Sequence record: MN158208.1
Length of the DNA stretch: 46,736 nt
Direction: 5' to 3' (one strand)
Origin: Escherichia phage BEK6
In this document: positions 677 to 46,301 of the stretch, piece by piece
How positions within the stretch are numbered: the stretch's first letter is position 1
How the letters are laid out: every line of letters starts with the position of its first letter
Notes under the pieces: model-generated
Database searches by the model: none
What the model saw: the letters and a program-made list of their open reading frames with translations, nothing else
What the model was told of the DNA's origin: nothing
Translations under genes and position numbers: made by a program

Positions 677-2242
677 ATGTCATTAGTATGGGAACAAATG
701 ACCATTCAGGAAAAGATGGCCGTCAAGGCGATATCAGAACACAGCTTCGAGGGTTTCCTTCGTTGCTGGTTCCAAATCACGCAGGGTGAGCGATACATCC
801 CTAACTGGCATCACAAGTACTTGTGCAGAATCATTGACGAGATTATTGCGGGTGAGCGCAAGGACACTATCATCAACATAGCTCCAGGTAGCGGGAAGAC
901 GGAAATAACATCAATCCACTTCCCCGTCTACTCGATGCTGAAGCTGAAGAAGGTTCGCAACCTGAATATCTCGTTCGCAGACTCAAACGTTAAGCGAAAC
1001 TCAAAGCGTGTCCGAGACTTGATATCATCAAAGGAGTTCCAGGAGCTCTGGCCTTGCAAGTTCGGAACAAATAAGGGTGACGAGATTCAGATCGTTGACG
1101 ACAGTGGAAAGGTTAGATTCGAGTCCATATCAGCATCAAAAGGAGGCAGGATTACTGGTACGCGTGGTGGATATATCACTGACACATACAGTGGCGCGGT
1201 AATGCTGGATGACTTCGACAAGCCAGACGAGATGTTTTCACCTGTATACAGAGCAAAGAGTCACACCCTACTTGGTAATACCATCCGTTCACGTCGCGCA
1301 AGTTCGGTAAGAGGTAAAGCAACTCCAATTATTCAGATTCAGCAGCGACTTCATGTCAATGACTCGACATGGTTCATGCTTAGCGGTGGTATGGGTATTG
1401 ATTTTGATTTGGTGAAGATACCTGCGCTTGTTACTGAAGATTACGTCGACACACTACCTGACTGGATTAAGCAGCAATTCATTGATGATGTATTATCAAG
1501 CGAATACGTTGAGCGTGACGGGGTGAAGTACTACAGCTACTTCCCAGGAAAGGAATCTGTGCATGATCTGGTTGCGATGTGGGATAGTGATCCGTACACT
1601 TTCCTCAGCCAGTATCAACAAGAACCTGTAGCTCTAGGCGGCAACCTGATTAACGTGGATTGGTTCCAGCGCCTTAGCGATACATTCAGACCTCCAGCTA
1701 AATACGACTATAGATTCATCACATGCGATACTGCGATGACTACAAAGAGTTATAGTGACTTCTCTGTACTTCAGTTGTGGGGATATAAGGATGCTAAGAT
1801 TTACCTCATAGACCAGCGGCGTGGTAAATGGGAAGCGCCAGATTTGGAAGCTGAACTGCTGGACTTTGAGAAGAAATCAAGGGCAACCAGTCAGACAGAT
1901 GGAATCCTCCGAAAGATTGTCATCGAGAAGAAAGCCTCTGGTATCGGCCTGATTCAATCAGCTGGCAGGGTTATGCGAACACCGATAGAGCCATACGTTC
2001 CGGATAACGACAAGCTAACCAGGGTGATGAGCGCCATGCCGCAGATTAAGGCTGGTAACGTGGTTCTACCGGAGTCTGCGCCGTGGCTAAATGGATTGCT
2101 TACGGAGATTGCGGCTTTTACTGCTGACGACTCACACAAACACGACGACCAAATTGATACCATGACAATGGCAATAAACCTGGTGCTTAACATTGCGGAT
2201 GATCCTAAGGCGCGACTAATGCGCATAGCGGGAATTAAATAG
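677..2242 (+). CDS. terL: terminase large subunit
   Basis: Walker A-like IAPGSGKT near the N-terminus, ~520 aa; GGAG RBS 8 nt before ATG 677 (track ORF opens at TTG 614). Confidence 0.85.
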   Translation: MSLVWEQMTIQEKMAVKAISEHSFEGFLRCWFQITQGERYIPNWHHKYLCRIIDEIIAGERKDTIINIAPGSGKTEITSIHFPVYSMLKLKKVRNLNISFADSNVKRNSKRVRDLISSKEFQELWPCKFGTNKGDEIQIVDDSGKVRFESISASKGGRITGTRGGYITDTYSGAVMLDDFDKPDEMFSPVYRAKSHTLLGNTIRSRRASSVRGKATPIIQIQQRLHVNDSTWFMLSGGMGIDFDLVKIPALVTEDYVDTLPDWIKQQFIDDVLSSEYVERDGVKYYSYFPGKESVHDLVAMWDSDPYTFLSQYQQEPVALGGNLINVDWFQRLSDTFRPPAKYDYRFITCDTAMTTKSYSDFSVLQLWGYKDAKIYLIDQRRGKWEAPDLEAELLDFEKKSRATSQTDGILRKIVIEKKASGIGLIQSAGRVMRTPIEPYVPDNDKLTRVMSAMPQIKAGNVVLPESAPWLNGLLTEIAAFTADDSHKHDDQIDTMTMAINLVLNIADDPKARLMRIAGIK

Positions 2243-2253
2243 CCGTGATAAAC

Positions 2254-2278
2254 TAGCCCCGTATATGGGGCTTTTTTA
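2254..2278 (+). terminator. hairpin + T-run between terminase and portal genes
   Basis: AGCCCC-gtatat-GGGGCT followed by TTTTTT, then TTGGAGAAAAAC-ATG. Confidence 0.5.
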
Positions 2279-2290
2279 TTGGAGAAAAAC

Positions 2291-9667: not shown

Positions 9668-10324
9668 ATGGCTCATTTATCAAATGGCACGCAGGTCTTC
9701 GTAGAAGGATCTCGCGGAACTGCAATTAACGTAACTGCAATCTCTAACGCAGATAAACCAGTTTTAACCGTATCTAGCGCATCTGACCTGGCTAAGGGTG
9801 ACTACCTTCTGTTTACCGCCTCCAGCTCAACCCTACTTAGCGACAAGCACGTGAGAGTAACTGAAGTTTCTGGCACTTCGGTAACAGTTGAAGGTATTGA
9901 TACCTCCAACACCACTAAGTTCCCTGCTGGCTTAACTGGTGAAGTTGTTAAGATTACTTCATGGTTCGAAGTCCCGTGTGTTCAGTACGTATCTACTGAC
10001 GGCGGCGAACAGCAGTTTGTTAACTTCCAGTGCCTTTCTGATGACCGCGAACAGCAGATTCCGACTTATAAATCTGCGGTAACAAACACCTTCACCTTTG
10101 CTCACGAGTACACCAACCCGGTCTATCCGGTTCTGCGTAAGTACGATGAGTCTGGCCAGGTTGTTGCAATTCGTCTGTTCGTACCTCGCGCTCAGGAAAT
10201 GCGTTTGCAGTCCGGCACTATCGCTTTCAACGACACCCCTACCATTGGTGTTAACGAAATCGAAACGGTATCCATCGCTGTATCCATTCGTGGCCGCCTG
10301 TCATCTGTGGCAGCTGAAGTTTAA
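9668..10324 (+). CDS. major tail protein
   Basis: 218-aa ORF with AAAAGGAAAAA RBS followed by a strong terminator (10331-10356); located before the chaperone/tape-measure genes. Confidence 0.6.
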   Translation: MAHLSNGTQVFVEGSRGTAINVTAISNADKPVLTVSSASDLAKGDYLLFTASSSTLLSDKHVRVTEVSGTSVTVEGIDTSNTTKFPAGLTGEVVKITSWFEVPCVQYVSTDGGEQQFVNFQCLSDDREQQIPTYKSAVTNTFTFAHEYTNPVYPVLRKYDESGQVVAIRLFVPRAQEMRLQSGTIAFNDTPTIGVNEIETVSIAVSIRGRLSSVAAEV

Positions 10325-10330
10325 AACACA

Positions 10331-10356
10331 AACCCTCTTCGGAGGGTTTTTTATTG
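10331..10356 (+). terminator. rho-independent terminator after the major tail gene
   Basis: CCCTC-ttcg-GAGGG followed by TTTTTTATT. Confidence 0.65.
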
Positions 10357-10357
10357 C

Positions 10358-10375
10358 ATAGCACTTTTTGATAAA
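10358..10375 (+). promoter_or_regulatory. gene-boundary palindrome copy (ATAGCACTTTTTGATAAA) with -10-like TATAGT 22 bp downstream
   Basis: TTGATA ends 10373, TATAGT 10396-10401, CATCGAAACGAAA 10407-10419, ATG 10435. Confidence 0.5.
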
Positions 10376-10434
10376 GCACTTATTCAGTTTTGCTGTATAG
10401 TTAACTCATCGAAACGAAATGGGGGAATTAAGAG

Positions 10435-10683
10435 ATGAATAACGTTAAAAACATTATCAAACTTACTGCGGTTCTGGTTGCTTTTTATGCGGTAGTTCAG
10501 ATTGTTAACCCAACTGGCGAGGCTGATGCAAATAGCAAGGCAAACAAATATACTGTTGAATTTTCCAAGGCTTATCGAGCATGTCAGGAGCTTGTGGGTG
10601 GTAAGGTTGACCAAATAATGAAATATGGCAAAGAGGTTTGTAAGGACTCAGCCGCTAAGATTGCAAAAGAAAACACTAAGTAA
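10435..10683 (+). CDS. small secreted/membrane protein (moron)
   Basis: 82-aa ORF with hydrophobic N-terminus (IIKLTAVLVAFYAVVQIV); preceded by its own palindrome / -10-like / CATCGAAACGAAA leader module. Confidence 0.5.
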   Translation: MNNVKNIIKLTAVLVAFYAVVQIVNPTGEADANSKANKYTVEFSKAYRACQELVGGKVDQIMKYGKEVCKDSAAKIAKENTK

Positions 10684-10721
10684 TAGAATACATACTCATA
10701 AACAATAAGGGGATCAACAAA

Positions 10722-11036
10722 ATGGCTAAATTCAAACTTTCACTGTCGGCACTTCCTGACTTTAAGCTGCCGGTAAAATTCAAGCTGGCTAACGACCAGG
10801 ATGTAGAGGTTATCTTTACAGTAAAGCATAAGAAAACATCTGAGCTTCAGGAATTGCTTAATAAAGAAGGACTGAGCACCAAAGAACTCATCATGGCAAT
10901 TGCTTCTGATTGGGATTTGGAGGAAGAATACAACGAGGATAACGTTAATGAGTTCTCCGACCTGTTCCCGGCCTCAACCGTTGCACTTACTACCGCTTAT
11001 ATGCAGGCACTGGCAGGCCAGCGGGTAAAAAACTAA
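10722..11036 (+). CDS. tail assembly chaperone (gpG-like)
   Basis: 104-aa acidic ORF directly upstream of the tape measure gene, ending at a slippery A_AAA_AAC. Confidence 0.6.
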   Translation: MAKFKLSLSALPDFKLPVKFKLANDQDVEVIFTVKHKKTSELQELLNKEGLSTKELIMAIASDWDLEEEYNEDNVNEFSDLFPASTVALTTAYMQALAGQRVKN

Positions 11037-11356
11037 AGAGGGCGGTGTATCTACAGTACCAGTCAGAGCCAACTGATGCCGAACTGGAAGCTATTGGGAT
11101 GCGCCGCTCTGATTACGAAGACGAAGAGCCTGAAGTTTTACACTTCGACGACAACATGATGAAGGCTTGGGACATTTATTGTTCAATGGCCACGCAATGG
11201 AGGGTTGGAGCTAACGGACCTACAGGGTTAGATTACAACGTGCTAAATTTCCTCTTTAGAGTGTATAATGTCTCAGAAGAAGAATTGGTGCTCAGTGATT
11301 TACGCATCCTTGAAGCTAAGGCTCTCGAGATGATGGATAATCTGAGAAAAAAATAA
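10722..11356 (+). CDS. tail assembly chaperone, predicted -1 frameshift product (gpGT-like)
   Basis: Heptamer A_AAA_AAC at 11027-11033 in the zero frame, 1 nt before the G stop; the -1 frame is open through 11356. Confidence 0.45.
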
Positions 11357-11376
11357 CCCGCTTCGGCGGGTTTTCT
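11356..11376 (+). terminator. hairpin + T-run before the tape measure gene
   Basis: ACCCGC-ttcg-GCGGGT followed by TTTTCT. Confidence 0.5.
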
Positions 11377-11391
11377 ATTATGGAGGCTTAG

Positions 11392-14370
11392 ATGGCAACA
11401 AATGAATTAGCCGGAATTACACTAGCCGTAGACGTCTCGCAGGTAGATAGAGGTACACAGTCCCTGCAGAAGTTCAGACAGGCAAACCAGCAGGCCGCTT
11501 CCGGCATTAGTGAGTTCGTCAACGCCGAGCAGGTTGCAAAGAATCAAGCCAGAGACACAGCTCGCGCACTTGCTGAACAGCAAGCATCTTTAGCTAAATT
11601 GCAAACAGCTATTGACCCAACTGCGGCAAAGTTCCGTAAGCTGCAAGAGGCAGCGGTAGGTCTTGATAAGGCATTCGCGGCTGGCGTGGTTCCTGATGAG
11701 GAGTTTTTCCGCTTAGGTGAGGCGCTTGAAACGCAGAGCGCAAAGCTTGCTCGCTCACGTGCGGCGCTAACTGAAGAGGGAAGGGCGGCGGCACAGGCTG
11801 CAAAGGATAAAGCAAAAGCAAAGGCTGAAGCTGATAGATTCATTGCATCACTTGAGCGTCAGGCTCAGGCGGCGACATTGACGAGAGAGGAGTACCTAAA
11901 GCTACAAGCGGCCCAGCTTGGAGTTAGTTCCCAGGCTGCGCCCATCATTGACAGAATCGCCGATGCATCACAGAAGGCAAACACCCAGCTAATTGCTCAA
12001 AGCAAGGCCTTTCAACGCTCTGGCTTAAGCGCAGGTCAATACAAGGCTGCAATCTCTCAATTGCCAGCGCAGATTACAGATATTGGGACATCACTTGCTG
12101 GCGGCATTCCGATTTGGCTTATTGCAATTCAGCAAGGCGGACAAATTAAGGATGCATTTGGAGGTATTGGTAACACATTTAGGTTTGCGCTTGCTGCTTT
12201 AAACCCGTTCAACGTAGCAGTTGGTGTTCTCGGTGGCGCTCTTGTTGCTTTAGGCGTCGGTGCTGCGCAGGCTGAAAGTGAATTCAGGGCGTTAAACTCT
12301 GCCATTGCGTTCTCAAACAACTCCACAATCGCATCAATCTCGCAGGTTAGAGAGTTGGTTAGCTCTGTTTCTGATGCTACTGGCGCAACCAGAGGGCTTG
12401 TGACTAGCATCGCAACAAGCCTTATTGAGCAAGGGAACCTTACACTGACGCAGATTGACAAGATTACCAAATCAACCGCCAGATGGGCGCAGTTGACAGG
12501 TAAGGATGCGAAGGAGATTACTGGTTACTATAACCAGATTGCAAGCGACCCAATCCAGGGTTTAGTTGACTTGGATAAGCGATTTAACTTCCTCACGCAG
12601 GGGCAATTGACGACAATCGAAAGATTGAGAGAGACTAGGGGTGAGGTTGAAGCTGTTACCGCCGCGATTGATATTTTCAGCAAGTCACAGGAAGCTAACC
12701 TTAACGACATAGCTGCGCAGTTAACTCCACTTGAGTTGGCCTGGAATGATTTTAGAAAGTACATCTCTGATATCTGGGATGCAATTAGTCGTAGAACGGT
12801 TGGGGCGCTGAACTTGTTTGTTGACGTAATAGCAGGAACAATTGAGCAAATCAGGGTCTTCCTTAACAGCGGTGACGTGCTGATTGGTGAATTCGTAATT
12901 AGCTCAATTCAGGCGTTGCAGAACATACCTGGTCTTGATGGTGTCGGTGATGACGTTATCAAGGCTCAGCGGGAGATTATCGATGCAGCTAAGAAGAATA
13001 ACCTTGAGCTAGAAAAGTCTATCAGGGAGCGAGACGCTAGAATAAGAAAAGGAGAAATGGGTTACGTTACTCGCAGAGAGAATCAGAATACCAATGAGCA
13101 GCCAGGCACGGATGAGGAGTTTGCAAAGAGGAAGAAGGCGCTTCAGGATGAGCTTGACGCGATTAAGAAGAACAGGAAAGAGGAAAATGGGAGGGTTAAG
13201 GAGCAAAGGGATTTAACAATTGGTTACGAATCTGGCGTGCTGGCACTTCAGGCTCAACTCAAGGTTCTTCAGGAAAATAGGGATATTGGCGCATTAATAA
13301 GTAATGAGCGCAAGCAGTATCTTCAAGAGGAGGCTAAATTCAGGATTCTTGAGCAGAGGCAACTTGATGGCTCAATTACCAAAGAGCAGGCAAGACTTCT
13401 CATTGAAAAGGATAAAGTTCTTGCACTCGCAAGTCAGAAAGCTGAGTTAGGCGATCAGATTGTTTTGCAGGAGCGTGCCAATAAGTTAGCTGAAGATAAC
13501 CGCAAAAAGATTCTTCAGATTAACAATGAGGCAAGCAATATTAATTTTGGGGCTGGCCTGTCTTCTCGGGAACAGCAGAGGGCAAGAGAGATCCAGGCTC
13601 TTCAGTCAAATCAGGTTAATGCTGGCGGCTCTCTTGATGATGTTGATTTCCAGCAGTTACTTGAAGCGAGAAAGGAATACTACAAGCAGGAGGATAATCT
13701 TAGGTCAGACTGGCAATCTGGTGTAACATCCACTCTCGCCGACTTGACAGAGAAATATACAGACTACAACCAGATTGCTAAGGACTTAACCGTTGCGGCA
13801 TTTGACGGGATTACAGAGCAAATTACAAACCTTGTAACCACTGGTGAGACGAACTTTAGGGAGTTCACAACAAGCATCCTGAAAATGATTGCGAAGATTG
13901 CAACTCAATTGCTTTTAGTTAAGGCCATCGAATCAACACTAACTAGTTTTGGTGGTGGTGGAGGTAACGCGTTTGGCTCATTTGCATCTGCTATGGGGTT
14001 CGCTGGCGGCGGCTACACTGGTGATGGTGGAAAATATCAGCCAGCAGGAACGGTACACCGTGGTGAGTTTGTATTCACAAAAGAAGCGACTAGCAGAATT
14101 GGCGTGAAAAACCTTTATGCGCTAATGAAGGGTTACGCAAACGGCGGTGCTGTTGGTGGTCCATCTGGTTATGCTAATGGCGGCTTGGTTTCTGGTGGGT
14201 CAAATGTTAATGTTAGTGGCATCACCGTTAACGTAAGCTCGGGTTTTGGTAGCGACCCAGAACAGGCTAAGGCATTGCAAAGTGGAGTCAAGGCTATCGT
14301 AGCGGAAGAGATTGCTCAGTCTTTCCAGCAGGGCGGCCGTGCGTATGCTTACCTTCGCGGATTCAACTAA
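11392..14370 (+). CDS. tail tape measure protein
   Basis: 992-aa ORF, GGAGG RBS, long Ala/Gln/Glu-rich coiled-coil regions and Gly-rich C-terminus; canonical position after G/GT. Confidence 0.85.
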   Translation: MATNELAGITLAVDVSQVDRGTQSLQKFRQANQQAASGISEFVNAEQVAKNQARDTARALAEQQASLAKLQTAIDPTAAKFRKLQEAAVGLDKAFAAGVVPDEEFFRLGEALETQSAKLARSRAALTEEGRAAAQAAKDKAKAKAEADRFIASLERQAQAATLTREEYLKLQAAQLGVSSQAAPIIDRIADASQKANTQLIAQSKAFQRSGLSAGQYKAAISQLPAQITDIGTSLAGGIPIWLIAIQQGGQIKDAFGGIGNTFRFALAALNPFNVAVGVLGGALVALGVGAAQAESEFRALNSAIAFSNNSTIASISQVRELVSSVSDATGATRGLVTSIATSLIEQGNLTLTQIDKITKSTARWAQLTGKDAKEITGYYNQIASDPIQGLVDLDKRFNFLTQGQLTTIERLRETRGEVEAVTAAIDIFSKSQEANLNDIAAQLTPLELAWNDFRKYISDIWDAISRRTVGALNLFVDVIAGTIEQIRVFLNSGDVLIGEFVISSIQALQNIPGLDGVGDDVIKAQREIIDAAKKNNLELEKSIRERDARIRKGEMGYVTRRENQNTNEQPGTDEEFAKRKKALQDELDAIKKNRKEENGRVKEQRDLTIGYESGVLALQAQLKVLQENRDIGALISNERKQYLQEEAKFRILEQRQLDGSITKEQARLLIEKDKVLALASQKAELGDQIVLQERANKLAEDNRKKILQINNEASNINFGAGLSSREQQRAREIQALQSNQVNAGGSLDDVDFQQLLEARKEYYKQEDNLRSDWQSGVTSTLADLTEKYTDYNQIAKDLTVAAFDGITEQITNLVTTGETNFREFTTSILKMIAKIATQLLLVKAIESTLTSFGGGGGNAFGSFASAMGFAGGGYTGDGGKYQPAGTVHRGEFVFTKEATSRIGVKNLYALMKGYANGGAVGGPSGYANGGLVSGGSNVNVSGITVNVSSGFGSDPEQAKALQSGVKAIVAEEIAQSFQQGGRAYAYLRGFN

Positions 14371-14400
14371 TTAACGGGGCTTCGGCCCCTAAGGATTTTT

Positions 14401-14751
14401 ATGGCTATTGACACATTTACCTGGTGCACTCAGATACAAAATGGAGGTGCTGCATTTTCCAACACAAACAACGTGCGAATTGTTAGCTTCGGTAATGGTT
14501 ACGAACAGCGCGGAACGGGAGGATACCGCAGCAACAAGCGCAGTTATCAGATGACTTACACTAACGAGGACTGGCGCGATGTGATGGACTTTTGCTTCAA
14601 CCACATCATTACTCCATTTTTCTGGACTACGCCGCAGGGCGATACATCCATGTTTGTTATTCAGCAGGATAGCATTAGCGTAACACCGCTAAGCAAGCAG
14701 ATTCAGACTGTAAGCATGCAATTCGTAGAAGTATTTAGTTCAATGCGTTAA
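14401..14751 (+). CDS. minor tail protein (lambda gpM-like)
   Basis: 116-aa ORF immediately after the tape measure gene; size/position as lambda M. Confidence 0.55.
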   Translation: MAIDTFTWCTQIQNGGAAFSNTNNVRIVSFGNGYEQRGTGGYRSNKRSYQMTYTNEDWRDVMDFCFNHIITPFFWTTPQGDTSMFVIQQDSISVTPLSKQIQTVSMQFVEVFSSMR

Positions 14752-14755
14752 ACTA

Positions 14756-14776
14756 AGCCCCATTAGGGGCTTTTTT
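14756..14776 (+). terminator. hairpin + T-run between M-like and L-like genes
   Basis: AGCCCC-atta-GGGGCT followed by TTTTTT, then TTGGAGAAAATC-ATG. Confidence 0.55.
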
Positions 14777-14789
14777 ATTGGAGAAAATC

Positions 14790-15545
14790 ATGTTAAGTCC
14801 AAAGTTTGAAAATCAGCTGCAAAGCCTTTTCCCTGGCGAGATTGTGACACTAATCCAGGTTGACGGAACCTCCTTCGGAAGTCTCGTTTACAACTTCCAC
14901 AATGAGAACATTTCATACACGCCAGAAGAGATTATGCTGTCCCAGATGAATGGGGAGCCACTACCAGAGAAGACTATTACATTTCGCGGTGAAGAGTATG
15001 GTCCTAGACCTTTCGGTATCTCGGGCATCAATATGACTTCTGACGGCAAGGCAAACAAAGTAACGCTAACAGTATCAAACGTGGACCAGCGTATCAGTGC
15101 CTTGATTCGCACTTACAATGGATTAGTCAAGGCTAAGGTTACTATCTGGATTACCACACGTGATAACATCAATGAAGATGGAAGTATTGCTGATGGTGAC
15201 TATCGCCGATTTGTTTACTTCATTGAGCGACCTAAGCAGGTTGATTACAAAACTGCGTCATTTGAGCTTAGTAGCCCGATGGATATGGATGGCATTTATA
15301 TCCCGGCGAGACTTGTTCAGTCTGTTTGCTATTGGGCTTCACGTGGCTGGTATCGTAGCGGGAATGGTTGCGACTACGCTGGTAATCGTTACTTTGACAA
15401 GGATGATAACCCAGTATCAGACCCTTCATTAGACTTCTGCGCCGGAACGGTTAATAGCTGTAAAATTAGATTTGGTGAGAATAATCAGCTTTCATTTGGT
15501 GGATGCGCGGCAGCAAGCCTTCAAGCTAAAGCAAATCAGAGCTAA
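14790..15545 (+). CDS. minor tail protein (lambda gpL-like)
   Basis: Cys-containing C-terminal region (CYWASRGWY...GNGCDYAGN...DFCAGTVNSC) like the gpL Fe-S motif; GGAGAAAATC-ATG start after a terminator. Confidence 0.7.
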   Translation: MLSPKFENQLQSLFPGEIVTLIQVDGTSFGSLVYNFHNENISYTPEEIMLSQMNGEPLPEKTITFRGEEYGPRPFGISGINMTSDGKANKVTLTVSNVDQRISALIRTYNGLVKAKVTIWITTRDNINEDGSIADGDYRRFVYFIERPKQVDYKTASFELSSPMDMDGIYIPARLVQSVCYWASRGWYRSGNGCDYAGNRYFDKDDNPVSDPSLDFCAGTVNSCKIRFGENNQLSFGGCAAASLQAKANQS

Positions 15546-15563
15546 ATAGCACGAATTGCTAAA
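15544..15563 (+). promoter_or_regulatory. gene-boundary palindrome copy AAATAGCACGAATTGCTAAA
   Basis: Overlaps stop of the L-like gene; TATAGT at 15584-15589 exactly 22 bp after TTGCTA. Confidence 0.5.
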
Positions 15564-15618
15564 CGATGAAGCCATGGATGGCGTATAGTTACTTCACACA
15601 AACGAGAGGGGTTAAAAA

Positions 15619-15981
15619 ATGTTCTACATTAAATTTAACGGATACAAAAAAGATAAAGAAGAATGCGAAGGTTTATTTTCTGTTGGTGAAACTTACGCCT
15701 GCGATGTTGTTGACTCGGGTAGGTACTATCAGGTTAGGGATGATGATGGTAAAACTGTAAAATTTAGCAGCATGCTCCATGATAGTTATTACAGCTTTTC
15801 ACGAGTTCATATTGAGGAAGATAGCTTAACTTTGATCAAATATGCGCGTGATGGAGAAATGAAATATCGAATGAATGGTGTTGATGTTACTAAGTCATTC
15901 TTTGAGGATAAGCTTCGTGAAGTTGAGTTACTTAAATCAAGAGGTGTTTCTGTGTTTGTAGATTTTGAGGTTAGTTTTTAA
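15619..15981 (+). CDS. hypothetical protein (moron between L-like and K-like genes)
   Basis: 120-aa ORF preceded by palindrome (15544-15563) / TATAGT (15584-15589) / leader module and followed by strong terminator 16005-16030. Confidence 0.5.
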   Translation: MFYIKFNGYKKDKEECEGLFSVGETYACDVVDSGRYYQVRDDDGKTVKFSSMLHDSYYSFSRVHIEEDSLTLIKYARDGEMKYRMNGVDVTKSFFEDKLREVELLKSRGVSVFVDFEVSF

Positions 15982-16004
15982 TAAACGAGATTAGTGTTAA
16001 ACTG

Positions 16005-16030
16005 GGTCAATCGAGAGATTGACCTTTTTT
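16005..16030 (+). terminator. rho-independent terminator after the moron at 15619
   Basis: GGTCAATC-gaga-GATTGACC followed by TTTTTT, then TTGGAGATAAA-ATG. Confidence 0.6.
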
Positions 16031-16042
16031 ATTGGAGATAAA

Positions 16043-16801
16043 ATGTTAACACCAAAAGTTAAACTGGAAATCTTCCAGCACGCAAAGGAAGCTTACCCGC
16101 ACGAATGTTGTGGGGTAGTGACCCAGAAGGGTCGTGCCCAGAAGTATCACAGAATCACAAATGCCAGCAAAGACCCTGAGAATGAGTTCATCCTTGATTC
16201 GAATGAGTATGCCGACATTGCATTTAATCTGGTTGATAACGAGTCAATTGTTTATGTAGTTCACTCACACACTGGTGATGGTGCAACAACAAGACCTAGC
16301 CCTGCGGATACATGTAGCTGTAATGAATGCGAGATTCCTTATGTAATTGTCAGCATTCCAGAGGGCGATATGCGCATCCTTGAACCTTCAACCATGCCAC
16401 TGATTGGCCGCCCGTGGGGTCTTGGAAGCTTTGATTGCTGGGGGCTAGTGATGAGTTTTCACAAGAAATACGGTGTCAAACTGAATGACTACCGAGTTAA
16501 TTACCCGTGGTGGGAGAAACGGTACAATGAAAATATCTATGACGACAACTGGATTAAGGAAGGATTTGAGCTGGTAAAAACTTCAGACATCCCGGTTGGC
16601 TCAATGATTATGATGCAGGTGCAGAGTGAGGTAACAAACCACGCTGGAGTATACATTGGCAACAACAGATTCATTCACCATCTTTATGGTAAAATGAGTT
16701 CCATTGATATCTATTCCGATTACTGGCGAGAGCGTACAGTGCGGATCGTTCGCCATAAAGATTTACCAGAGGATGTAAATTATGACCCAGAAACTGATTG
16801 A
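16043..16801 (+). CDS. tail tip assembly protein (lambda gpK-like, MPN/JAB + NlpC/P60-type)
   Basis: HSHTGDGATTRPSPADT JAB/MPN-like metal motif plus C-terminal Cys/His hydrolase-like region; GGAG RBS before ATG 16043. Confidence 0.7.
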   Translation: MLTPKVKLEIFQHAKEAYPHECCGVVTQKGRAQKYHRITNASKDPENEFILDSNEYADIAFNLVDNESIVYVVHSHTGDGATTRPSPADTCSCNECEIPYVIVSIPEGDMRILEPSTMPLIGRPWGLGSFDCWGLVMSFHKKYGVKLNDYRVNYPWWEKRYNENIYDDNWIKEGFELVKTSDIPVGSMIMMQVQSEVTNHAGVYIGNNRFIHHLYGKMSSIDIYSDYWRERTVRIVRHKDLPEDVNYDPETD

Positions 16802-20836: not shown

Positions 20837-21779
20837 AATACATATCAGGAAGGTAAGGAAGTGGCGTTGATATTGTTACGTCAGGCCTATTTCCTATCTC
20901 GTATCTGACAATCCTTGAGCCCGTGCCAGATCTAACATACCCGTTGCTCATTACAATTCCTTTGTTTCTCAACTCCTTATATGCTCGTATTGCCCTTGTG
21001 TTAAATCCACATCTGAGTATTGGGAAGTAGGATTCGCCAATGTATTGATTGCTACCTGATAGGTTTATGAATCCAGAAACAACCAATGGCCTTGTTAAAG
21101 TTGAAAGCGTGCAAATCCCATTAGAGTTAAATATGTTCAAGCCTGGGCCCGGAGTTGGAGCGACCATCTGGAAGATAATCAAATCCATAGTGACGCTTCC
21201 TGGTGTATCACCAGTATCTTCAGTATTTATGTTTGTACATATCAGTTGGTTGCTACCGTTGTATTCAACTGAAACGCCTGGGTTGCTCCACTTTCCAAAT
21301 GGTATACCATAAATTGGCAGTGTGTATGTGTTGGTGAAAGATATTCTCTGAGCAAACTTGCATACTAATAGCCTGTCAGTGGTGGTTATAGAAGTAAAGT
21401 CAGTACTGTCAGCAACGTAAATACCCTGGCCTGTAGATGCTCTTAGTACCTCAACAACAGTACCAGAAAATTGAGTTATACGGTCAGAATATCCATTCTC
21501 ATAGCCAATCGATATTGTTCCGCTTGATGCCGTTGATGAGAATCCATTTATGTAGTAAATCTCAACGCCCCTATCAAGTTCGAATGAGTATGCGCCATTG
21601 TTAGGGATAAGGAATCTTGACGCTCCCTCATTGCCCTGAATTGGAAAAGTCTTGCTAAACCCACCGCTAGAAACGTTGAAATTGCCAGCGAAATTCAATG
21701 CCCGCATCCCTGCGGTTATTGTCATTGGCTTCCTTCCGTCATTTAGGTCTATATAAATACCCTGAGCCATTAATTCCAC
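20835..21779 (-). CDS. hypothetical protein, candidate receptor-binding / tail-associated protein
   Basis: 314-aa Gly/Ser/Thr/Asn-rich ORF, GGAG RBS, co-oriented with and overlapping the upstream lipoprotein gene; function inferred by analogy with RBP-lipoprotein pairs. Confidence 0.4.
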
Positions 21780-22000
21780 TCCTTAGAGCCATGATCACGA
21801 ACAGAGCCACTGGGGCCTTTAATACCATCGTAGCGCACGTCAATTTCACCAGCTGGTACAACCATGCCACTTTTCCATTTAGCTACGCACACGCCGTTTG
21901 AGGACGTTGCACACCAACCATCCGGGCGAGGACCAGAAGAACAACCAACTGCCATGATTACTACTAATGCGATGATTGCCGATTTGATTAAGTTATTCAT
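21770..22000 (-). CDS. small lipoprotein, Cor/Llp-like superinfection-exclusion candidate
   Basis: 76 aa; N-terminal signal peptide ending IMAVGC (lipobox-like) then Cys-containing mature part; AAGGA RBS and its own palindrome/-10/leader module. Confidence 0.5.
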
Positions 22001-26404: not shown

Positions 26405-28912
26405 TCATGCTCCGTAAGCAACGGAGCCATCTGCTTTTAACCATGAAGTTCCGTTGTACCACACAGGAATCCCAAGGTTGGTATCGAAAGTTGTGAAACC
26501 TACAGGCTGAAAAGCCCTTTTGGCTTTGATTTCGGCAGTTGTTCCATAGCTGTACTCTTTAAGCCTATGCGAAACCAAGTCAGAATTCCTGTTCCATAAG
26601 ATTTCATGCTCTTCAATCTTACCCCCAGAAGTTATTGAGTTAACCTGGTAGATACACCTAATCGTAGACATAGCACCAGAGTAATAATGTCCAAAAATAG
26701 AAATGAATCCAGTATCGTCCTGTATTTCATTTAACCACGGTTGAAAAACAGATCGAATATCACCCGTTGCTTCTGAAAGTGATAGCCTGAACTCAAAATC
26801 ACTCTTAACATTGTTTGATACACACCATGCGTTTACTGCATTAAAGGCTTCCAGTACCGTCATGGAAGGCTTCACATTTGAAAAGTAAAGGTACTTTGCA
26901 ATCTCAGAGCTACTATTAACAATGACATTGGAATCCTGAATGGTGCTGCTGAAATTCTTTACAGGAAAAAGAGATGCATTAACAACATTTAAAGCCCTTG
27001 TTAATGGATATGAAAGTCTTTCCAGCGTGTTTGTGTAATGATTTCCGGTTGTCGCGTCTACTATCCCAGCCCTGTATTTTATAAGATTAGGGTCCCATAT
27101 GGTTAAGTCAAAAAAGCAACCATCCATAAAACCAATGCCGTTTGATATCTTCACAACCTTTTGCATCATTGCGTGTGGTTGTGACTTGAGTCTGACTCTT
27201 ATGTCACCAATTCCACCTGCCACATTTCCACCAGACTTCGGCAAGCTATTGTCAACAAAATGATTCGTACTAAGCCACGCAACAAGATTCAAGTCCATTG
27301 ATGAAATAAAGTTTAACTTATTTGATCCAACGCTGATTGCGTGAGCGTTAGTAAAACCAGTTGACGAAACATCTATATCATTCCATATCAATACCTCTTG
27401 ATCTTTTGAGTTGCAGTCAATTGAGAATCCATAACCCTCATCATTAACTGGTGATGCTGCGGCCTCTTGCTTGATGGCTCCTTGCTTGTTGAATACGTAG
27501 AAATTACCAAAGAATGTTCGCTGGCTAAGTCTAGAGAAGTTTTGCGGCCCAGTATAGTAATTAGAACCCCTTAAAGTAAGAGCTACGCGCGAGTAACCGC
27601 CACCAGGTATGTCAACCTCAATTCTCATTCCATTAGCATTAAAGTTTGCTATAGGGTTTTTAAAGACAAATCCGTCAATGTCAGTTTTTATTAAAAAAAC
27701 AACATCTTCCGAAATGCTTACTTCCTTTAAACGTCCAATATCAATAGTCTTCGTACTAGAAATTAGATAAACACCAGATTTTACAACAAACCTGCCATCT
27801 GAAATCATAGCGTCAAAGCTAGAATCTACTGGCGTAGCTCCGGTATTATCTGCTCCGTAAGAAACTAAATCACCAATGAACCTTGATGTTGATTCCTCTT
27901 TTGAGTAAACATCAAGATTAGTTCTTGCTGCGGCTTTATCTTTAACGTCAGAGAAATTCAATGATTTTTGAAAAGTCTCATTTTTTGAATAAACATCAAG
28001 CAACCCCCTAACCCTTAAAGCAGAAGCTCCACCAGTAGCACCATCTCCACCAGGAACGCTTAGAAGTTCCCTTACATAAAAATTCCTAGAACCAGTAGCT
28101 CCAGTAAAGGTAATTTCCGCAACCCTAAAAGCTGCGTTTGAGGTTGTAGAAGGAGAAATTCTTACTACGTTACTTCCATTAATACCACTCGTTGCAAGAA
28201 CATCAATACAAATGGTGGTGTTTGTCGCCGGGAACATTGAACTTAAGTCTGCCGGAATGTTAACCATGTTGTCAATTCTGCACTGGTAACTACCACCTGA
28301 ATAAAATTGCATTGTCTGCCAATCAAGAGATGTTAAAAGTGGTGTTGTAGTACTTCCTATACCGTGTTCTGCAAAGTAAGCCACTGCGGCGGTATTCCCG
28401 GCTGCATTTATTACGGCAACGGTTCTCTTGTATGAGTTCTGTGCATTATTGCTAGCACCAACGGCAGTAGCGGCGCTCTCTGCGGCAGCAATCTGGCTAG
28501 CAAGAGCCTCAGCAGCTCCAGTGGTGGATTGTTTTGCAAGTTTCTCGAAGCGAGGCCAGTCGAAAGTGTCTTGACCAATAAATTGCAGCAATCCTTCGAT
28601 GGATGTCTCCTTTGACTGGTAGTATCGTAAAGTCTCCGCAACATCCTGAGCCAAACCCTGAACGGTAATACCATCGTGAGCAAGAATCGCATAACCCGTA
28701 CCGGCCGGAACTGTTTCAGAATTAGGATTGTAAACATTAATCTGCGTATCACTGATGATTTCAGAGATGGTGTAAATTTTTAGTGGGTTAGTTTTAAAAA
28801 TGATAGTGGCACCAACCCTGATCAGTGTAAGAGGTGCTTTCCATACTGTCCCCGCGCCAGTTACCTCGCCATTTGCGGCCAGCGAGGCGGTTCCTAAGTC
28901 ATAAATTGCCAT
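26405..28912 (-). CDS. putative tail fiber / tailspike-like protein
   Basis: 835-aa ORF rich in Gly/Ser/Thr/Asn; GC-richer 5' portion and AT-rich central/3' portion; GGAGA RBS; palindrome copy in the 5' leader. Confidence 0.5.
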   Translation of the reverse strand: MAIYDLGTASLAANGEVTGAGTVWKAPLTLIRVGATIIFKTNPLKIYTISEIISDTQINVYNPNSETVPAGTGYAILAHDGITVQGLAQDVAETLRYYQSKETSIEGLLQFIGQDTFDWPRFEKLAKQSTTGAAEALASQIAAAESAATAVGASNNAQNSYKRTVAVINAAGNTAAVAYFAEHGIGSTTTPLLTSLDWQTMQFYSGGSYQCRIDNMVNIPADLSSMFPATNTTICIDVLATSGINGSNVVRISPSTTSNAAFRVAEITFTGATGSRNFYVRELLSVPGGDGATGGASALRVRGLLDVYSKNETFQKSLNFSDVKDKAAARTNLDVYSKEESTSRFIGDLVSYGADNTGATPVDSSFDAMISDGRFVVKSGVYLISSTKTIDIGRLKEVSISEDVVFLIKTDIDGFVFKNPIANFNANGMRIEVDIPGGGYSRVALTLRGSNYYTGPQNFSRLSQRTFFGNFYVFNKQGAIKQEAAASPVNDEGYGFSIDCNSKDQEVLIWNDIDVSSTGFTNAHAISVGSNKLNFISSMDLNLVAWLSTNHFVDNSLPKSGGNVAGGIGDIRVRLKSQPHAMMQKVVKISNGIGFMDGCFFDLTIWDPNLIKYRAGIVDATTGNHYTNTLERLSYPLTRALNVVNASLFPVKNFSSTIQDSNVIVNSSSEIAKYLYFSNVKPSMTVLEAFNAVNAWCVSNNVKSDFEFRLSLSEATGDIRSVFQPWLNEIQDDTGFISIFGHYYSGAMSTIRCIYQVNSITSGGKIEEHEILWNRNSDLVSHRLKEYSYGTTAEIKAKRAFQPVGFTTFDTNLGIPVWYNGTSWLKADGSVAYGA

Positions 28913-28924: not shown

Positions 28925-28944
28925 CCATTTTGTAGAATAGCACG
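28925..28944 (-). promoter_or_regulatory. palindrome copy in the 5' leader of the 835-aa fiber-like gene
   Basis: Minus-strand reading TTAGCAATTCGTGCTATTC then TACAAAAT-GGAGA RBS; candidate extended -10 TGaTACAAT just upstream on the minus strand. Confidence 0.45.
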
Positions 28945-28968
28945 AATTGCTAAGTTGGATTGTATCAT

Positions 28969-29982: not shown

Positions 29983-30456
29983 TTACTCTTTAGCTTTTCG
30001 TGCTGCTTCGTTAGCGGCCTTAATTTTGCGCCAGGAGCGACACTCCGGCTTGGTGGCTAACTCAGCCTCAGTAACCACACGCAGCATGTGGCGTTTTTTG
30101 CATCGTAGAGTTAGCGGCTTTCCGTTGCCATCGAATTGTAGATCTGGTCGGCAGAATGTAGCTCGAAAACCTTCTCCGGTTCGTTTGTAGTAGTTGTGCG
30201 ACAACTGAGCGCCACGCGCAGAAATCATACCACGCTTAAACCATTCTTCTACAGCCTGTGGTGTTACCTTTAACTGCTTTGCGATATTAGCCTTTGTGCC
30301 AAAGAAATCAAGGAGCATCTCAAGACGTGCTCGTAGCCCGGCCCTTACTTCATCTTTTAAAACGTAGTAACCTGAGGGTCGTTTTCGCTGTTTTTTGTCT
30401 TCAGTGCGGACTGTTCCGTTGTTGCCGTTAATGGTTCGCTTGTCTACTTCATTCAT
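29983..30456 (-). CDS. putative HTH DNA-binding protein
   Basis: 157-aa basic protein with helix-turn-helix-like segment GTKANIAKQLKVTPQAVEEWFKRG; first gene of the minus-strand primase operon. Confidence 0.4.
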   Translation of the reverse strand: MNEVDKRTINGNNGTVRTEDKKQRKRPSGYYVLKDEVRAGLRARLEMLLDFFGTKANIAKQLKVTPQAVEEWFKRGMISARGAQLSHNYYKRTGEGFRATFCRPDLQFDGNGKPLTLRCKKRHMLRVVTEAELATKPECRSWRKIKAANEAARKAKE

Positions 30457-33525: not shown

Positions 33526-33545
33526 AAATAGCACGAATTGCTAAA
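33526..33545 (+). promoter_or_regulatory. gene-boundary palindrome copy AAATAGCACGAATTGCTAAA
   Basis: TATAGT at 33566-33571 (22-bp spacing) inside hairpin GGAGTAtagtTACTCC; leader CATCGAAACTAAAC. Confidence 0.5.
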
Positions 33546-33607
33546 GATGATTTTAAAAGATGGAGTATAGTTACTCCATCGAAACTAAACTCAGAGAGAG
33601 AAACAAA

Positions 33608-46223: not shown

Positions 46224-46301
46224 GCTCTGTTAGCTCAATTGGATAGCAGCAACGACCTTCTAAGTCGTAGGTTACTGGTTCGAATCCAGTGCGGAGCGCC
46301 A
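46224..46301 (+). tRNA. tRNA-Arg (anticodon UCU), with encoded 3' CCA
   Basis: Hand-folded cloverleaf: acceptor GCTCTGT/GCGGAGC, anticodon stem ACGAC/GTCGT with loop CTTCTAA (anticodon TCT), T-arm ACTGG-TTCGAAT-CCAGT, discriminator G then CCA; resembles enterobacterial argU-type tRNA. Confidence 0.75.

What the first reader, a model, noticed from the sequence alone, without database searches (positions are those of the whole stretch)
10358..16030. Two promoter-equipped morons inserted in the tail operon
Within the otherwise tightly packed late tail operon, two extra genes carry the early-region boundary module (palindrome, -10-like hexamer, conserved leader). They are a small protein with a hydrophobic N-terminus at 10435-10683 (between the major tail gene and chaperones) and a 120-aa protein at 15619-15981 (between the L-like and K-like genes, followed by its own strong terminator). 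Independently transcribed inserts of this kind often encode host-interaction or exclusion functions.
Basis: partly seen in the sequence, partly recalled or inferred. Interest (0 to 1): 0.55.

Follow-up and report, generated by a model that had tools for sequence, protein, structure and literature searches.

The report
Two accessory gene cassettes in tail operon
Two small extra genes sit between the tail genes of a T1-like E. coli phage, each behind the promoter-like sequence this phage family puts in front of its early genes; related phages lack or swap them, so they are optional add-ons, and their functions are still unknown.

Summary
The window is a complete Rtp/ACG-M12-like coliphage genome (Drexlerviridae). 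It carries 19 copies of a composite element: ATAGCAC-N4-TGCTAAA, then 20 nt, a TATAGT-like hexamer, 5 nt and a CATCGAAACGA leader. Only two copies lie in the structural half, at 10358 and 15546, directly upstream of g1 (82 aa) and g2 (120 aa).

Synteny supports insertion. The L|K junction is a 10-bp gap in most relatives. In others it holds g2, an HNH endonuclease or a Rha-family gene. g2 relatives also sit at M|L and TerL|portal junctions with the same module and 3' terminator. The slot holding g1 is empty in SU57 and T1, and holds an unrelated lipoprotein gene in Rtp. Both genes are AT-rich outliers.

g1 is predicted to be a single-pass membrane protein. g2 is predicted to be a cytoplasmic two-domain protein with an SH3-like N-terminal domain.

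Caveats:
- Promoter activity and timing are inferred only.
- g1 has no terminator of its own and is nearly universal within its clade.
- The tail operon already contains several terminators.
- The 21-nt repeat was published for phage TLS in 2024, function unknown.
- The closest analogues are lambdoid morons and T4 PeSL cassettes.

The parts
10330..10349 (+). Intrinsic-terminator-like hairpin plus T-run after the major tail gene (9668-10324). It belongs to that gene, not to the insert.
   Evidence: 8-pair stem. It is conserved in SU57, where the slot is empty, and a terminator is annotated at the same place in T1.
10358..10421 (+). Module 1. Repeat ATAGCACTTTTTGATAAA (10358-10375), 20-nt spacer, -10-like TATAGT (10396-10401), conserved leader CATCGAAACGAAATG (10407-10421). 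Inferred transcript start near A10408.
   Evidence: Leave-two-out matrix score 54.5 bits against a shuffle maximum of 6.9. The same module precedes an unrelated gene in Rtp.
10435..10683 (+). g1: 82-aa protein. Predicted single-pass inner-membrane protein (N-in/C-out), or a secreted protein, with a helical hairpin and two invariant cysteines.
   Evidence: phrog_22925, function unknown; no Pfam, NCBIfam or PADLOC match. AlphaFold2 model: helices 2-24, 30-54 and 57-81, pLDDT 67. Alignment A3. GC 39.0% against 46.1% for the structural region. Found in 81 phage records.
15546..15609 (+). Module 2. It starts directly after the stop codon of L. Repeat ATAGCACGAATTGCTAAA (15546-15563), spacer, TATAGT (15584-15589), leader CACACAAACGAGAGG (15595-15609). 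Inferred transcript start near 15596.
   Evidence: Score 55.6 bits. The spacer and leader travel with g2-family genes at other junctions.
15619..15981 (+). g2: 120-aa acidic cytoplasmic protein. SH3-like N-terminal barrel, variable linker, highly conserved C-terminal beta-beta-alpha-beta domain.
15995..16042 (+). 3' end of the cassette: GTTAAACTGGG, hairpin GGTCAATCGAGAGATTGACC (16004-16025), T6, then ATTGGAGATAAA, which supplies the ribosome-binding site of K. The probable true K start is ATG 16043.
   Evidence: The same 3' element follows g2 relatives at M|L in JulesPiccard. Elements of the same type sit natively at the window's M|L (14748-14790) and TerL|portal (2243-2290) junctions.

Best explanation
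**What it is.** The window is a virulent T1-like coliphage of the Rtp/ACG-M12 group (Drexlerviridae, Braunvirinae-like). Two junctions of its tail operon are hot-spots where optional gene cassettes are gained, lost and exchanged.

**The module (inferred).** Each cassette starts with the family's standard intergenic module: ATAGCAC-N4-TGCTAAA, 20 nt, a TAnnnT hexamer, 5 nt, then an A-rich CATCGAAACGA leader. I read the module as a host sigma-70 promoter that lacks a -35 hexamer. Its upstream repeat, a TAGCA-N5-TGCTA near-palindrome centred about 42 bp before the inferred start, would be bound by a still-unidentified factor. The phage's Cro-like HTH protein (29983-30456, minus strand) is the obvious candidate. 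Transcripts would start at about A10408 and about 15596.

**The two transcription units (inferred).**
- The g2 unit is self-contained: module, gene, terminator.
- The g1 unit has no terminator, so it would be co-transcribed with the two tape-measure chaperone genes.

**Shown here.**
- The modules are real.
- The genes are dispensable and patchily distributed.
- Cargo is replaced between conserved flanks.
- The g2 family occupies three different late-operon junctions with the same 5' module and 3' terminator.
- Modules are themselves chimeric between distant genome positions.

This is the behaviour described for T4 PeSL cassettes, where recombination occurs at repeated regulatory sequences.

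**Gene functions (inferred, with my odds).**
- g1 inserts in the inner membrane with a periplasmic helical domain and acts on the cell envelope. The most likely role is exclusion of superinfecting phage or protection of the infected cell: about 40%.
- g2 is a cytoplasmic protein whose variable SH3-like domain binds a host or defence target: about 30%. A dispensable virion accessory role: about 15%.
For: **Module is real and family-wide.**
- (statistics above).
- About 15 further copies each occur in Rtp and T1.
- The 21-nt repeat is published for TLS: 21 copies, oriented with transcription, about 76 nt upstream of start codons (PMC11447400). Here the distances are 77 and 73 nt.

**Consistent with a promoter.**
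- The geometry is fixed.
- The hexamer keeps T1, A2 and T6.
- The leader begins 5-7 nt after the hexamer.
- Every copy faces a start codon.
- One copy (22084, minus strand) drives the Rtp45-like phage lipoprotein gene at 21770-22000 (PF24052, 1.5e-35).

**Insertion and dispensability.**
- L|K is empty in OzMSK, FP, L010-L012 and L014, and in about 55 of 66 records.
- L|K holds an HNH gene in Rtp, DTL and JulesPiccard.
- L|K holds a reverse-oriented Rha-family gene in IME253, ZL19 and Rao1.
- g2 occurs in only 14 of 50,697 phage records.
- g1 is absent from SU57 and T1.
- In Rtp and four other records the g1 slot holds the lipoprotein rtp34 (MKAIIAIMATLLLAGC...). Homology between the two genomes ends at the ATG and resumes about 20 nt before the chaperone gene.

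**Mobility of g2.**
- Relatives sit at M|L in JulesPiccard (42% identity).
- Relatives sit at TerL|portal in Opt-79 (36% identity, E = 1e-17) and Rtp rtp22 (hhalign 94% probability).
- All carry the module and a TAAACTAG-hairpin-TTTTTTATTGGAGA 3' end.

**Chimeric modules.** The g2 modules of SU57 and ACG-M12 join the spacer of an early-region module to the g2-type leader, with different crossover points.

**Composition.** The GC content of g2 lies in the lowest 0.3% of same-size windows in the structural region. That of g1 lies in the lowest 4%.

**Proteins.**
Against: - No transcript 5' ends or expression timing are available for any Drexlerviridae.
- A standard sigma-70 scan does not call the modules. 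The TTGnTA hexamer is 22 bp from the -10.
- The TLS authors left the repeat's role open: stoperator, enhancer site or UP element.
- The late-region copies tolerate changes in the core repeat in relatives: ACAGCAC in FP slot 1 and SU57 slot 2, and a 1-nt shorter spacer in OzMSK slot 1. They could be decaying.
- The two tail-operon modules lack the hairpin found in 25 of 44 modules, so they may not behave like the early-region copies.
- g1 has no terminator and is nearly universal in its clade. That fits a fixed operon component as well as an insert.
- RefSeq labels g2 relatives 'virion structural protein' and SU57 calls its copy 'putative tail fiber protein'. I could not trace this to data, and the original GenBank records say 'hypothetical' or 'gp37'. 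I could not disprove it either.
- Neither protein matches any known exclusion, anti-defence or defence family.
Confidence: 0.7

Rival explanations
1. The modules are there for the tail operon, not for the small genes. They would be internal restart promoters or regulator-binding sites that re-initiate or tune transcription after the terminators punctuating the T1-type late region (the 'transcripton' idea). g1 and g2 would be passengers of little consequence.
For: - The late region has terminator-like hairpins after the major tail gene, T, M and I, and the same is annotated in T1.
- The TLS paper cites the T1 late region as a series of terminator-flanked units with promoters and perhaps enhancers.
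- g1 has no terminator, so module 1 would also drive the chaperone genes.
- T1 keeps a repeat, in reverse orientation, in the same major-tail|chaperone gap without any gene.
Against: - Module 2 is followed by g2 and then a 9-pair terminator, so it cannot serve K-I-J without read-through.
- Most relatives express L-K-I-J with no module at all at that junction.
- SU57 lacks module 1.
- The module moves together with g2-family genes to other junctions.
Confidence: 0.15
2. g2, and possibly g1, is a dispensable virion or assembly component. It could be a tail or neck accessory attached through the conserved C-terminal domain and displaying a variable SH3-like domain. It would be encoded where it is used.
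For: - All g2-family copies sit inside structural operons (TerL|portal, M|L, L|K).
- The pattern of a conserved C-terminus with a variable N-domain and linker suits an attached, exposed protein.
- Database labels read 'virion structural protein', 'putative tail fiber protein' and 'putative minor outer capsid protein'.
Against: - The labels are secondary. The original records say hypothetical, gp37 or rtp22, and no proteomic support was found.
- Phages with 93-98% identical L and K proteins lack it.
- It has its own module and terminator and an extreme AT bias.
- Some genomes carry two paralogues at different junctions.
Confidence: 0.12
3. The ATAGCAC repeat is not part of a promoter. It would be an operator or 'stoperator' for a phage repressor, or an RNA-level element such as a processing or stability signal in read-through transcripts. 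The TATAGT and leader conservation would reflect that function. g1 and g2 would then be expressed only from upstream late transcription.
For: - The TLS authors proposed stoperators.
- The repeat also occurs without a -10 or leader: at window 28937, conserved in Rtp and T1, just upstream of the minus-strand tail-fibre gene.
- In 25 of 44 modules a sequence-variable but pairing-conserved hairpin encloses the hexamer. That is odd for a plain promoter.
- Several modules overlap terminator hairpins.
Against: - The hexamer keeps exactly the positions sigma-70 needs (T1, A2, T6). About half of the window's copies, read by eye, have TGn just upstream.
- Spacing to the leader and to start codons is fixed.
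- No Rfam family matches.
- Early-region genes on both strands would otherwise have no promoter at all, and TLS authors found only three conventional ones.
Confidence: 0.2
4. The cassettes are selfish passengers. g2-type genes, like the HNH endonuclease genes that share the same slots, would persist because they spread by recombination at repeated boundary sequences, without benefit to the phage.
For: - g2 shares the L|K slot with free-standing HNH genes that carry a variant of the same module.
- Distribution is patchy and position varies.
- One HNH copy at this slot is decayed (L017).
Against: - g2 has no nuclease motif: no conserved His or Cys in the C-terminal beta-beta-alpha unit.
- The ORF is intact in all 46 clusters found, and the C-terminal domain is strongly conserved. 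That indicates selection on the protein.
Confidence: 0.1

Closest known systems
Morons of lambdoid phages, in particular the HK97 gene 15 moron (Juhala 2000; Cumby 2012; review PMC3594210)
   Same: - Extra gene inserted between tail-operon genes that are adjacent in relatives.
- Deviating base composition.
- Its own promoter-like element, and for g2 its own terminator.
- HK97 gene 15 lies next to the chaperone and tape-measure genes and encodes a small inner-membrane protein that blocks DNA entry. g1 has a similar position and predicted architecture.
   Different: - This phage family is virulent, so there is no prophage from which to express the gene.
- g1 lacks a terminator and shows no sequence similarity to gp15/YebO.
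- The promoter-like element is not an ordinary sigma-70 promoter. It is the family's own repeated module.
PeSL (promoter-early stem-loop) cassettes of T4-like phages (Arbiol 2010, PMC2839356; Comeau 2014, PMC4122927)
   Same: - A short composite regulatory sequence repeated many times between small non-essential genes of a virulent phage.
- Differences between close relatives begin and end at the repeats.
- The repeats act as points of exchange between unrelated sequences.
   Different: - Unrelated phage family and a different anatomy: an upstream 18-21-nt repeat in place of a -35, a fixed 20-nt spacer, and a conserved transcribed leader.
- The stem-loop is present in only about 57% of copies and often encloses the -10 rather than acting as a terminator.
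- Neither promoter nor terminator activity has been measured.
The 21-nt direct repeat aaATAGCACnnnTTGnTAAAA of phage TLS, also noted in T1, Rtp and Rogue1 (PMC11447400, 2024)
   Same: Same sequence, same orientation with transcription, and same distance to start codons (about 76 nt; here 77 and 73).
   Different: That paper treats the repeat alone and leaves its role open. Here it is seen as one end of a 64-nt unit with a fixed-distance -10-like hexamer and leader. It marks the 5' boundary of mobile cassettes inside the late operon.
Cor, Llp and Rtp45-type exclusion lipoproteins of T1-, T5- and Rtp-like phages
   Same: - Small envelope-targeted proteins of virulent siphophages, encoded next to tail genes.
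- The window's own Rtp45-like gene (21770-22000, minus strand) is driven by the same module.
- In Rtp the g1 slot holds a lipoprotein.
   Different: g1 has no lipobox and no similarity to these families. No receptor-blocking or exclusion activity has been tested.

Membership tests
Moron (Hendrix/Juhala definition as summarised in PMC3594210) | Extra DNA between two genes that are adjacent in related phages | tested here: met
   g2: L and K are 10 bp apart in OzMSK, FP, L010-L012 and L014, contiguous in about 55 of 66 records, and overlapping in T1. g1: the major tail and chaperone genes are adjacent in SU57 and T1.
Moron (Hendrix/Juhala definition as summarised in PMC3594210) | Own promoter | tested here: inconclusive
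   The family-wide promoter-like module is present upstream of both genes. It has no -35 at 16-18 bp, and no activity data exist.
Moron (Hendrix/Juhala definition as summarised in PMC3594210) | Own terminator | tested here: inconclusive
   Met for g2 (hairpin 16004-16025 plus T6). Not met for g1: nothing terminator-like lies between 10683 and 11355.
Moron (Hendrix/Juhala definition as summarised in PMC3594210) | Base composition differs from surrounding genes | tested here: met
   g2 GC 34.7% (GC3 28.9%) and g1 GC 39.0%, against 46.1% +/- 3% for the structural region. Lowest 0.3% and 4% of same-size windows respectively.
Moron (Hendrix/Juhala definition as summarised in PMC3594210) | Expressed from a repressed prophage to the benefit of the lysogen | not testable with these tools
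   Drexlerviridae are described as virulent (my own knowledge). This criterion is probably inapplicable rather than failed.
PeSL-type mobile promoter/terminator cassettes (T4-like phages) | Many copies of one short composite regulatory sequence between small variable genes | tested here: met
   19 copies in the window, 17 of them in the non-structural half in front of small ORFs. About 15 each in Rtp and T1.
PeSL-type mobile promoter/terminator cassettes (T4-like phages) | Composite of a strong sigma-70 promoter and a stem-loop that terminates transcription | tested here: inconclusive
   A -10-like hexamer is present but no -35. A hairpin occurs in 25 of 44 modules. Only some are terminator-like, and both tail-operon copies lack it.
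PeSL-type mobile promoter/terminator cassettes (T4-like phages) | Indels and replacements between close relatives have their endpoints in the repeats | tested here: met
   In slot 1 cargo is replaced exactly between the module and the chaperone ribosome-binding site. The g2 cassette is bounded by the module and the late-junction element. Chimeric modules occur.
PeSL-type mobile promoter/terminator cassettes (T4-like phages) | Sequence relationship to the T4-type PeSL consensus | not tested
   I did not compare the sequences. The resemblance claimed is functional and architectural only.
TLS/T1 21-nt direct repeat (PMC11447400) | Consensus aaATAGCACnnnTTGnTAAAA, oriented with transcription, about 76 nt upstream of a start codon | tested here: met
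   gcATAGCACtttTTGaTAAAg at 10356-10376 and aaATAGCACgaaTTGcTAAAc at 15544-15564. Start codons lie 77 and 73 nt downstream.
Sigma-54 (-24/-12) promoter | TGGCAC-N5-TTGC, with GG and GC twelve positions apart | tested here: not met
   The repeat reads TAGCAC-N3-TTGC. The dinucleotides are ten positions apart and GG is AG (read; consensus from my own knowledge).
Known superinfection-exclusion or envelope proteins (HK97 gp15/YebO, Cor, Llp, Rtp45 family, TrbK) | Sequence membership of one of these families (g1) | tested here: not met
   No Pfam, NCBIfam or PADLOC match at E <= 0.01. Homologues occur only on contigs of phage-genome size or shorter fragments.
Known superinfection-exclusion or envelope proteins (HK97 gp15/YebO, Cor, Llp, Rtp45 family, TrbK) | Small protein targeted to the cell envelope (g1) | tested here: met
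   K5 and K9 followed by a 15-residue hydrophobic helix, then NPTG and a basic helical hairpin with two invariant Cys. This is prediction only; SignalP and topology assays were not available.
Known superinfection-exclusion or envelope proteins (HK97 gp15/YebO, Cor, Llp, Rtp45 family, TrbK) | Blocks infection by the same or related phages when expressed | not testable with these tools
   Needs plating assays.
Virion structural protein (label of phrog_14592 and RefSeq for g2 relatives) | Present in all phages that share the structure it is supposed to build | tested here: not met
   Absent from most phages with 93-98% identical L and K proteins.
Virion structural protein (label of phrog_14592 and RefSeq for g2 relatives) | Detected in purified virions | not testable with these tools
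   No proteomic record was found. The original GenBank entries say gp37, hypothetical or rtp22. The phiEB49 and Rtp papers are not held.

The most novel reading that the evidence does not exclude
The ATAGCAC unit would be the recognition site of a dedicated phage transcription system in T1-like phages. A phage protein, such as the Cro-like HTH protein at 29983-30456, would bind the TAGCA-N5-TGCTA repeat at about -42 and replace -35 recognition by host RNA polymerase. The hairpin that encloses the -10 in most early copies would add a second layer of control. The same 64-nt unit would double as a portable recombination joint that lets gene cassettes hop between early and late regions. g1 and g2 would then be counter-defence or exclusion genes placed under this early programme inside the tail operon.
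Probability: 0.2. Interest if true: 0.65.

Novelty: new variant of a known kind. Interest (0 to 1): 0.42.

Why it matters
T1-like phages are classical and now widely used, for example in the BASEL collection, in therapy candidates and as laboratory contaminants. How they organise transcription is still unknown. The 2024 TLS paper found only three conventional promoters and could not explain the ATAGCAC repeat.

This analysis shows that the repeat is the upstream end of a fixed 64-nt unit facing nearly every early gene. It also shows that the unit forms the 5' boundary of cassettes that come and go inside the tail operon. Together these give a concrete and cheap set of experiments on promoter function, the factor that reads the repeat, and cassette exchange.

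The analysis also flags two small proteins (and Rtp's rtp34 lipoprotein in the g1 slot) as candidates for exclusion or counter-defence functions. Natural knock-outs already exist for comparison: SU57 lacks g1, and OzMSK, FP and several BEK phages lack g2.

As a genome feature it is not surprising. Morons and PeSL-type cassettes are well known.

Tried and rejected
- **Sigma-54 promoter.** The repeat resembles TGGCAC-N5-TTGC, but the spacing is two bases short and GG is AG. Rejected.
- **TTGnTA as a -35.** It lies 22 bp from the -10, and no hexamer sits 17 bp downstream of it. Rejected as a conventional -35.
- **Sigma-32, sigma-28 and sigma-24 consensus by eye.** Spacings do not fit.
- **Rfam scan of the whole window.** Only tRNA matches.
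- **g2 as a His-Me/HNH nuclease.** The C-terminal beta-beta-alpha unit suggested it, but there is no conserved His or Cys. Rejected.
- **Remote homology for g2.**
  - The profile search of 1.84 billion representatives found only about 18 small phage proteins. The long-protein hits are Ig-like repeat proteins and look spurious.
  - The PDB sequence search gave nothing below E = 0.5.
- **g1 against rtp34.** No relationship (E = 0.088).
- **Family libraries.** Pfam, NCBIfam and PADLOC gave nothing for g1, g2, rtp34 or rtp22.
- **Source of the 'virion structural protein' label.** The phiEB49 and Rtp papers are not held. The ACG-M12 and O157-phage papers give no support.
- **Literature search for Drexlerviridae transcript maps.** None found. 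The PNAS 2026 RNA-seq concerns a T5-like phage.
- **IMG/VR scan with protein L.** It returned few close relatives. The GenBank phage collection was more useful.

Full report
**What the window is.** The 7.8-kb tail region is 86-92% identical to Escherichia phages vB_Ec-G8, ACG-M12, FP, OzMSK and many others. The g2 protein is 100% identical to a protein of Escherichia phage BEK6, found on a 46,766-bp contig. The window is therefore essentially a whole genome of an Rtp/ACG-M12-like member of the Drexlerviridae. PHROG matches give the lambda-like gene order: major tail protein (9668-10324), g1, chaperones G and T, tape measure, M, L, g2, K, I, J.

**Checking the observation.** Both ORFs exist. 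Printing the context of every ATAGCAC in the window shows a repeated unit. It begins at or over a stop codon and reads ATAGCAC-N4-TG(C/T/A)TAAA, 20 nt, a TAnnnT hexamer (mostly TATAGT or TATAAT), 5 nt, then CATCGAAACGAAA, followed by a Shine-Dalgarno sequence and a start codon.
- ATAGCAC occurs 20 times against 5.5 expected.
- A 64-nt weight matrix built without the two tail copies scores them 54.5 and 55.6 bits. The best score in 50 shuffled genomes is 6.9 bits.
- There are 19 copies. Only these two lie in the structural half.
- The terminator after g2 (16004-16025) and the hydrophobic N-terminus of g1 are also real.

The tail operon is not otherwise unpunctuated. Terminator-like hairpins also follow the major tail gene, T, M and I, as annotated in T1.

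**The module is already partly known.** A full-text search for the motif found the 2024 re-annotation of phage TLS (PMC11447400). It reports a 21-nt direct repeat, aaATAGCACnnnTTGnTAAAA, at 21 places. The repeat is oriented with transcription and lies about 76 nt upstream of start codons. The authors also saw it in T1, Rtp and Rogue1. They found only three conventional sigma-70 promoters and left the repeat's role open (stoperator, enhancer site or UP element). I confirmed about 15 copies each in Rtp and T1.

My analysis adds the following.
- The repeat is one end of a fixed unit with a -10-like hexamer 20 nt further on and a conserved leader that starts where a transcript would start.
- The near-palindrome TAGCA-N5-TGCTA is then centred about 42 bp upstream of that start. 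This is a typical position for a factor that substitutes for -35 contacts.
- The TTGnTA hexamer is 22 bp from the -10, too far for a normal -35, and the standard scan does not call these sites.
- The resemblance to sigma-54 promoters fails on spacing.
- Promoter function is therefore an inference, though I consider it the most economical one. Every copy faces a gene, and one (22084, minus strand) faces the Rtp45-like phage lipoprotein gene (PF24052).

**Are the two genes insertions? Slot 2 (L|K).**
- In OzMSK, FP and several IMG/VR relatives, L and K are 10 bp apart. In T1 they overlap.
- A 501-nt empty-junction probe is contiguous in about 55 of 66 matching records, including the sister isolates BEK1-1, BEK2 and BEK3. 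Forty-three of these records are near-identical isolates from one study, so they are not independent.
- In the remaining relatives the slot holds g2 relatives, an HNH endonuclease with a variant module, or a reverse-oriented Rha-family gene.
  - g2 relatives: ACG-M12, SU57, phiEB49, G8, ECH1, SCS31.
  - HNH endonuclease: Rtp rtp40, DTL, JulesPiccard, and a decayed copy in L017.
  - Rha-family gene with its own TTGACA-type promoter and terminator: IME253, ZL19, Rao1.
  - Sources.
- g2 itself is found in only 14 of 50,697 phage records.

**Slot 1 (major tail|chaperone).**
- g1 is in 81 records, nearly all close relatives.
- It is missing in SU57, where the deletion runs from just after the major-tail terminator to just after the g1 stop.
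- It is absent from T1.
- In Rtp and four other records the slot holds rtp34, an unrelated 128-aa protein with a lipobox (LLAGC). It sits behind the same terminator and module. Homology between the two genomes ends at the start codon and resumes about 20 nt before the chaperone gene.

Both genes are compositional outliers (g2 GC 34.7%, g1 39.0%, structural region 46.1%).

**The g2 cassette moves.**
- JulesPiccard carries a g2 relative (42% identity) between M and L.
- Opt-79-type phages carry one (36% identity, E = 1e-17) between TerL and portal.
- Rtp's rtp22 at the same place is a distant member (hhalign 94% probability). rtp22-type genes occur in 22 records.
- All copies have the module in front, most with a cassette-specific spacer and leader (..GGATGGCGTATAnTTAC.. 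CACACAAACGAGAGGAG).
- All copies have the same kind of 3' end: (G)TTAAACTAGG, a GC-rich hairpin, TTTTTTATTGGAGA, then the next gene's ATG.
- Elements of that 3' type sit natively at the window's M|L and TerL|portal junctions. The window's TerL|portal junction is the clean empty site for the rtp22-type cassette.
- The g2 modules of SU57 and ACG-M12 are chimeras. Their spacer is that of an early-region module (window 33528 or Rtp 37795 type), joined to the g2-type leader at two different crossover points.

This is direct sequence evidence that modules some 18-20 kb apart recombine. It is the behaviour described for PeSL cassettes of T4-like phages.

**The proteins.**
- *g1.* It has two lysines, then a 15-residue hydrophobic helix that is more conserved than the rest of the protein. 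This is followed by NPTG and a basic helical hairpin with two invariant cysteines. I read it as a single-pass inner-membrane protein with a periplasmic C-terminus. A cleaved signal peptide (ADA|N) is possible. No family library matches it.
- The 'virion structural protein' label on relatives is not in the original records, and I could not trace it to data.

**How it most likely works.**
- *Shown:* two dispensable, horizontally exchanged cassettes sit at recombination-prone junctions. Each begins with the family's repeated module.
- *Inferred:* the module is a factor-assisted sigma-70 promoter. g2 would be an independent unit, and g1 would be the first gene of a g1-G-T unit.
- *Conjectured:* g1 acts on the envelope (exclusion or protection), by analogy with HK97 gp15, which lies at a nearby position in its tail operon. 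The lipoprotein in the same slot in Rtp points the same way. g2 would bind a cytoplasmic host or defence target.

**Verdict.** Expression timing, promoter activity and function remain untested. g1 only partly fits the moron definition. The feature is a Drexlerviridae version of two known phenomena, morons and PeSL-type cassette shuffling, built on a repeat whose existence is published but whose role is not.

Noticed in passing
window 44718, 33528, 43238, 40114(-), 37734(-), 25197; L004 (Rtp) 3077, 37795; L006 (T1) 1450, 2269, 3535, 4344, 4864, 47633(-): In 25 of 44 modules from three phages, the stretch between the repeat and the leader folds far better than shuffles (z < -2). In about 17 of these the stem brackets the -10 hexamer, and the stem sequences differ while pairing is kept. 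The two tail-operon modules lack this hairpin. I have no explanation.
   Followed up: partly
window 28937-28954 (also L004 33762, L006 34902): A copy of the repeat without the -10 or leader is conserved in Rtp and T1. It lies just upstream of the start of the minus-strand tail-fibre gene (26405-28912), downstream of a TACAAT on that strand. It might act as an operator there.
   Followed up: no
window 2225-2290, 14745-14790, 15995-16042: A second repeated boundary element, TAAACTAG + GC-rich hairpin + TTTTTTATTGGAGA(A/T)AA + ATG, occurs at TerL|portal, at M|L and after g2. It forms the 3' end of g2-family cassettes in other phages. The window's TerL|portal junction is the empty site of the rtp22-type cassette.
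   Followed up: partly
L005 6483-6560, L001 6780-6860 versus window 33528-33610 and L004 37795-37877: The g2 modules of SU57 and ACG-M12 are chimeras. An early-region module spacer is joined to the g2-type leader, with different crossover points. This implies recombination between modules far apart in the genome.
   Followed up: yes
L006 (T1) 18849(-) and 15085(-): T1 has copies of the module in reverse orientation inside its late region. One lies in the major-tail|chaperone gap facing the bidirectional terminator. One lies between ST48 and the major head gene, where it would drive antisense transcription.
   Followed up: no
window 21770-22000(-), module at 22084(-): The Rtp45-like phage lipoprotein gene (PF24052, E = 1.5e-35) downstream of the J-like gene is driven by a full module. 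[quoted passage not shown]
   Followed up: partly
window 30468 and 29983-30456(-): A repeat copy sits in the divergent region between a weakly Cro-like HTH gene (the T1 gp23 / Rtp52 family) and the helicase gene. The HTH protein is a candidate reader of the repeat and may regulate itself.
   Followed up: no
window 46224-46301 and 46309-46407: A tRNA-Arg(TCT) is found by both ARAGORN and Rfam. Directly after it, Rfam calls a second tRNA-like sequence of 99 nt (39.3 bits) that ARAGORN does not report.
   Followed up: no
window 16019-16045 and 14778-14792: The mechanical ORF calls for K and L start at upstream TTG codons. For K that codon lies inside the g2 terminator hairpin. By comparison with annotated relatives, the true starts are probably ATG 16043 (K) and ATG 14790 (L).
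   Followed up: partly
L013 7766-8383 (IME253); also ZL19 and Rao1 records: In these phages the L|K slot holds a reverse-oriented Rha-family gene. It has a conventional TTGACA-type promoter and its own terminator. This is a fourth kind of cargo at the same junction, and it does not use the ATAGCAC module.
   Followed up: partly
L001 5087-5158; L004 6317, 21394; L008 4138-4205: Free-standing HNH endonuclease genes inserted in late operons carry a variant of the module: the repeat, then a hairpin AGGATAGC..GCTATCCT, then TATAAT. They occur at TMP|M in ACG-M12, TerS|TerL and L|K in Rtp, and L|K in JulesPiccard.
   Followed up: no
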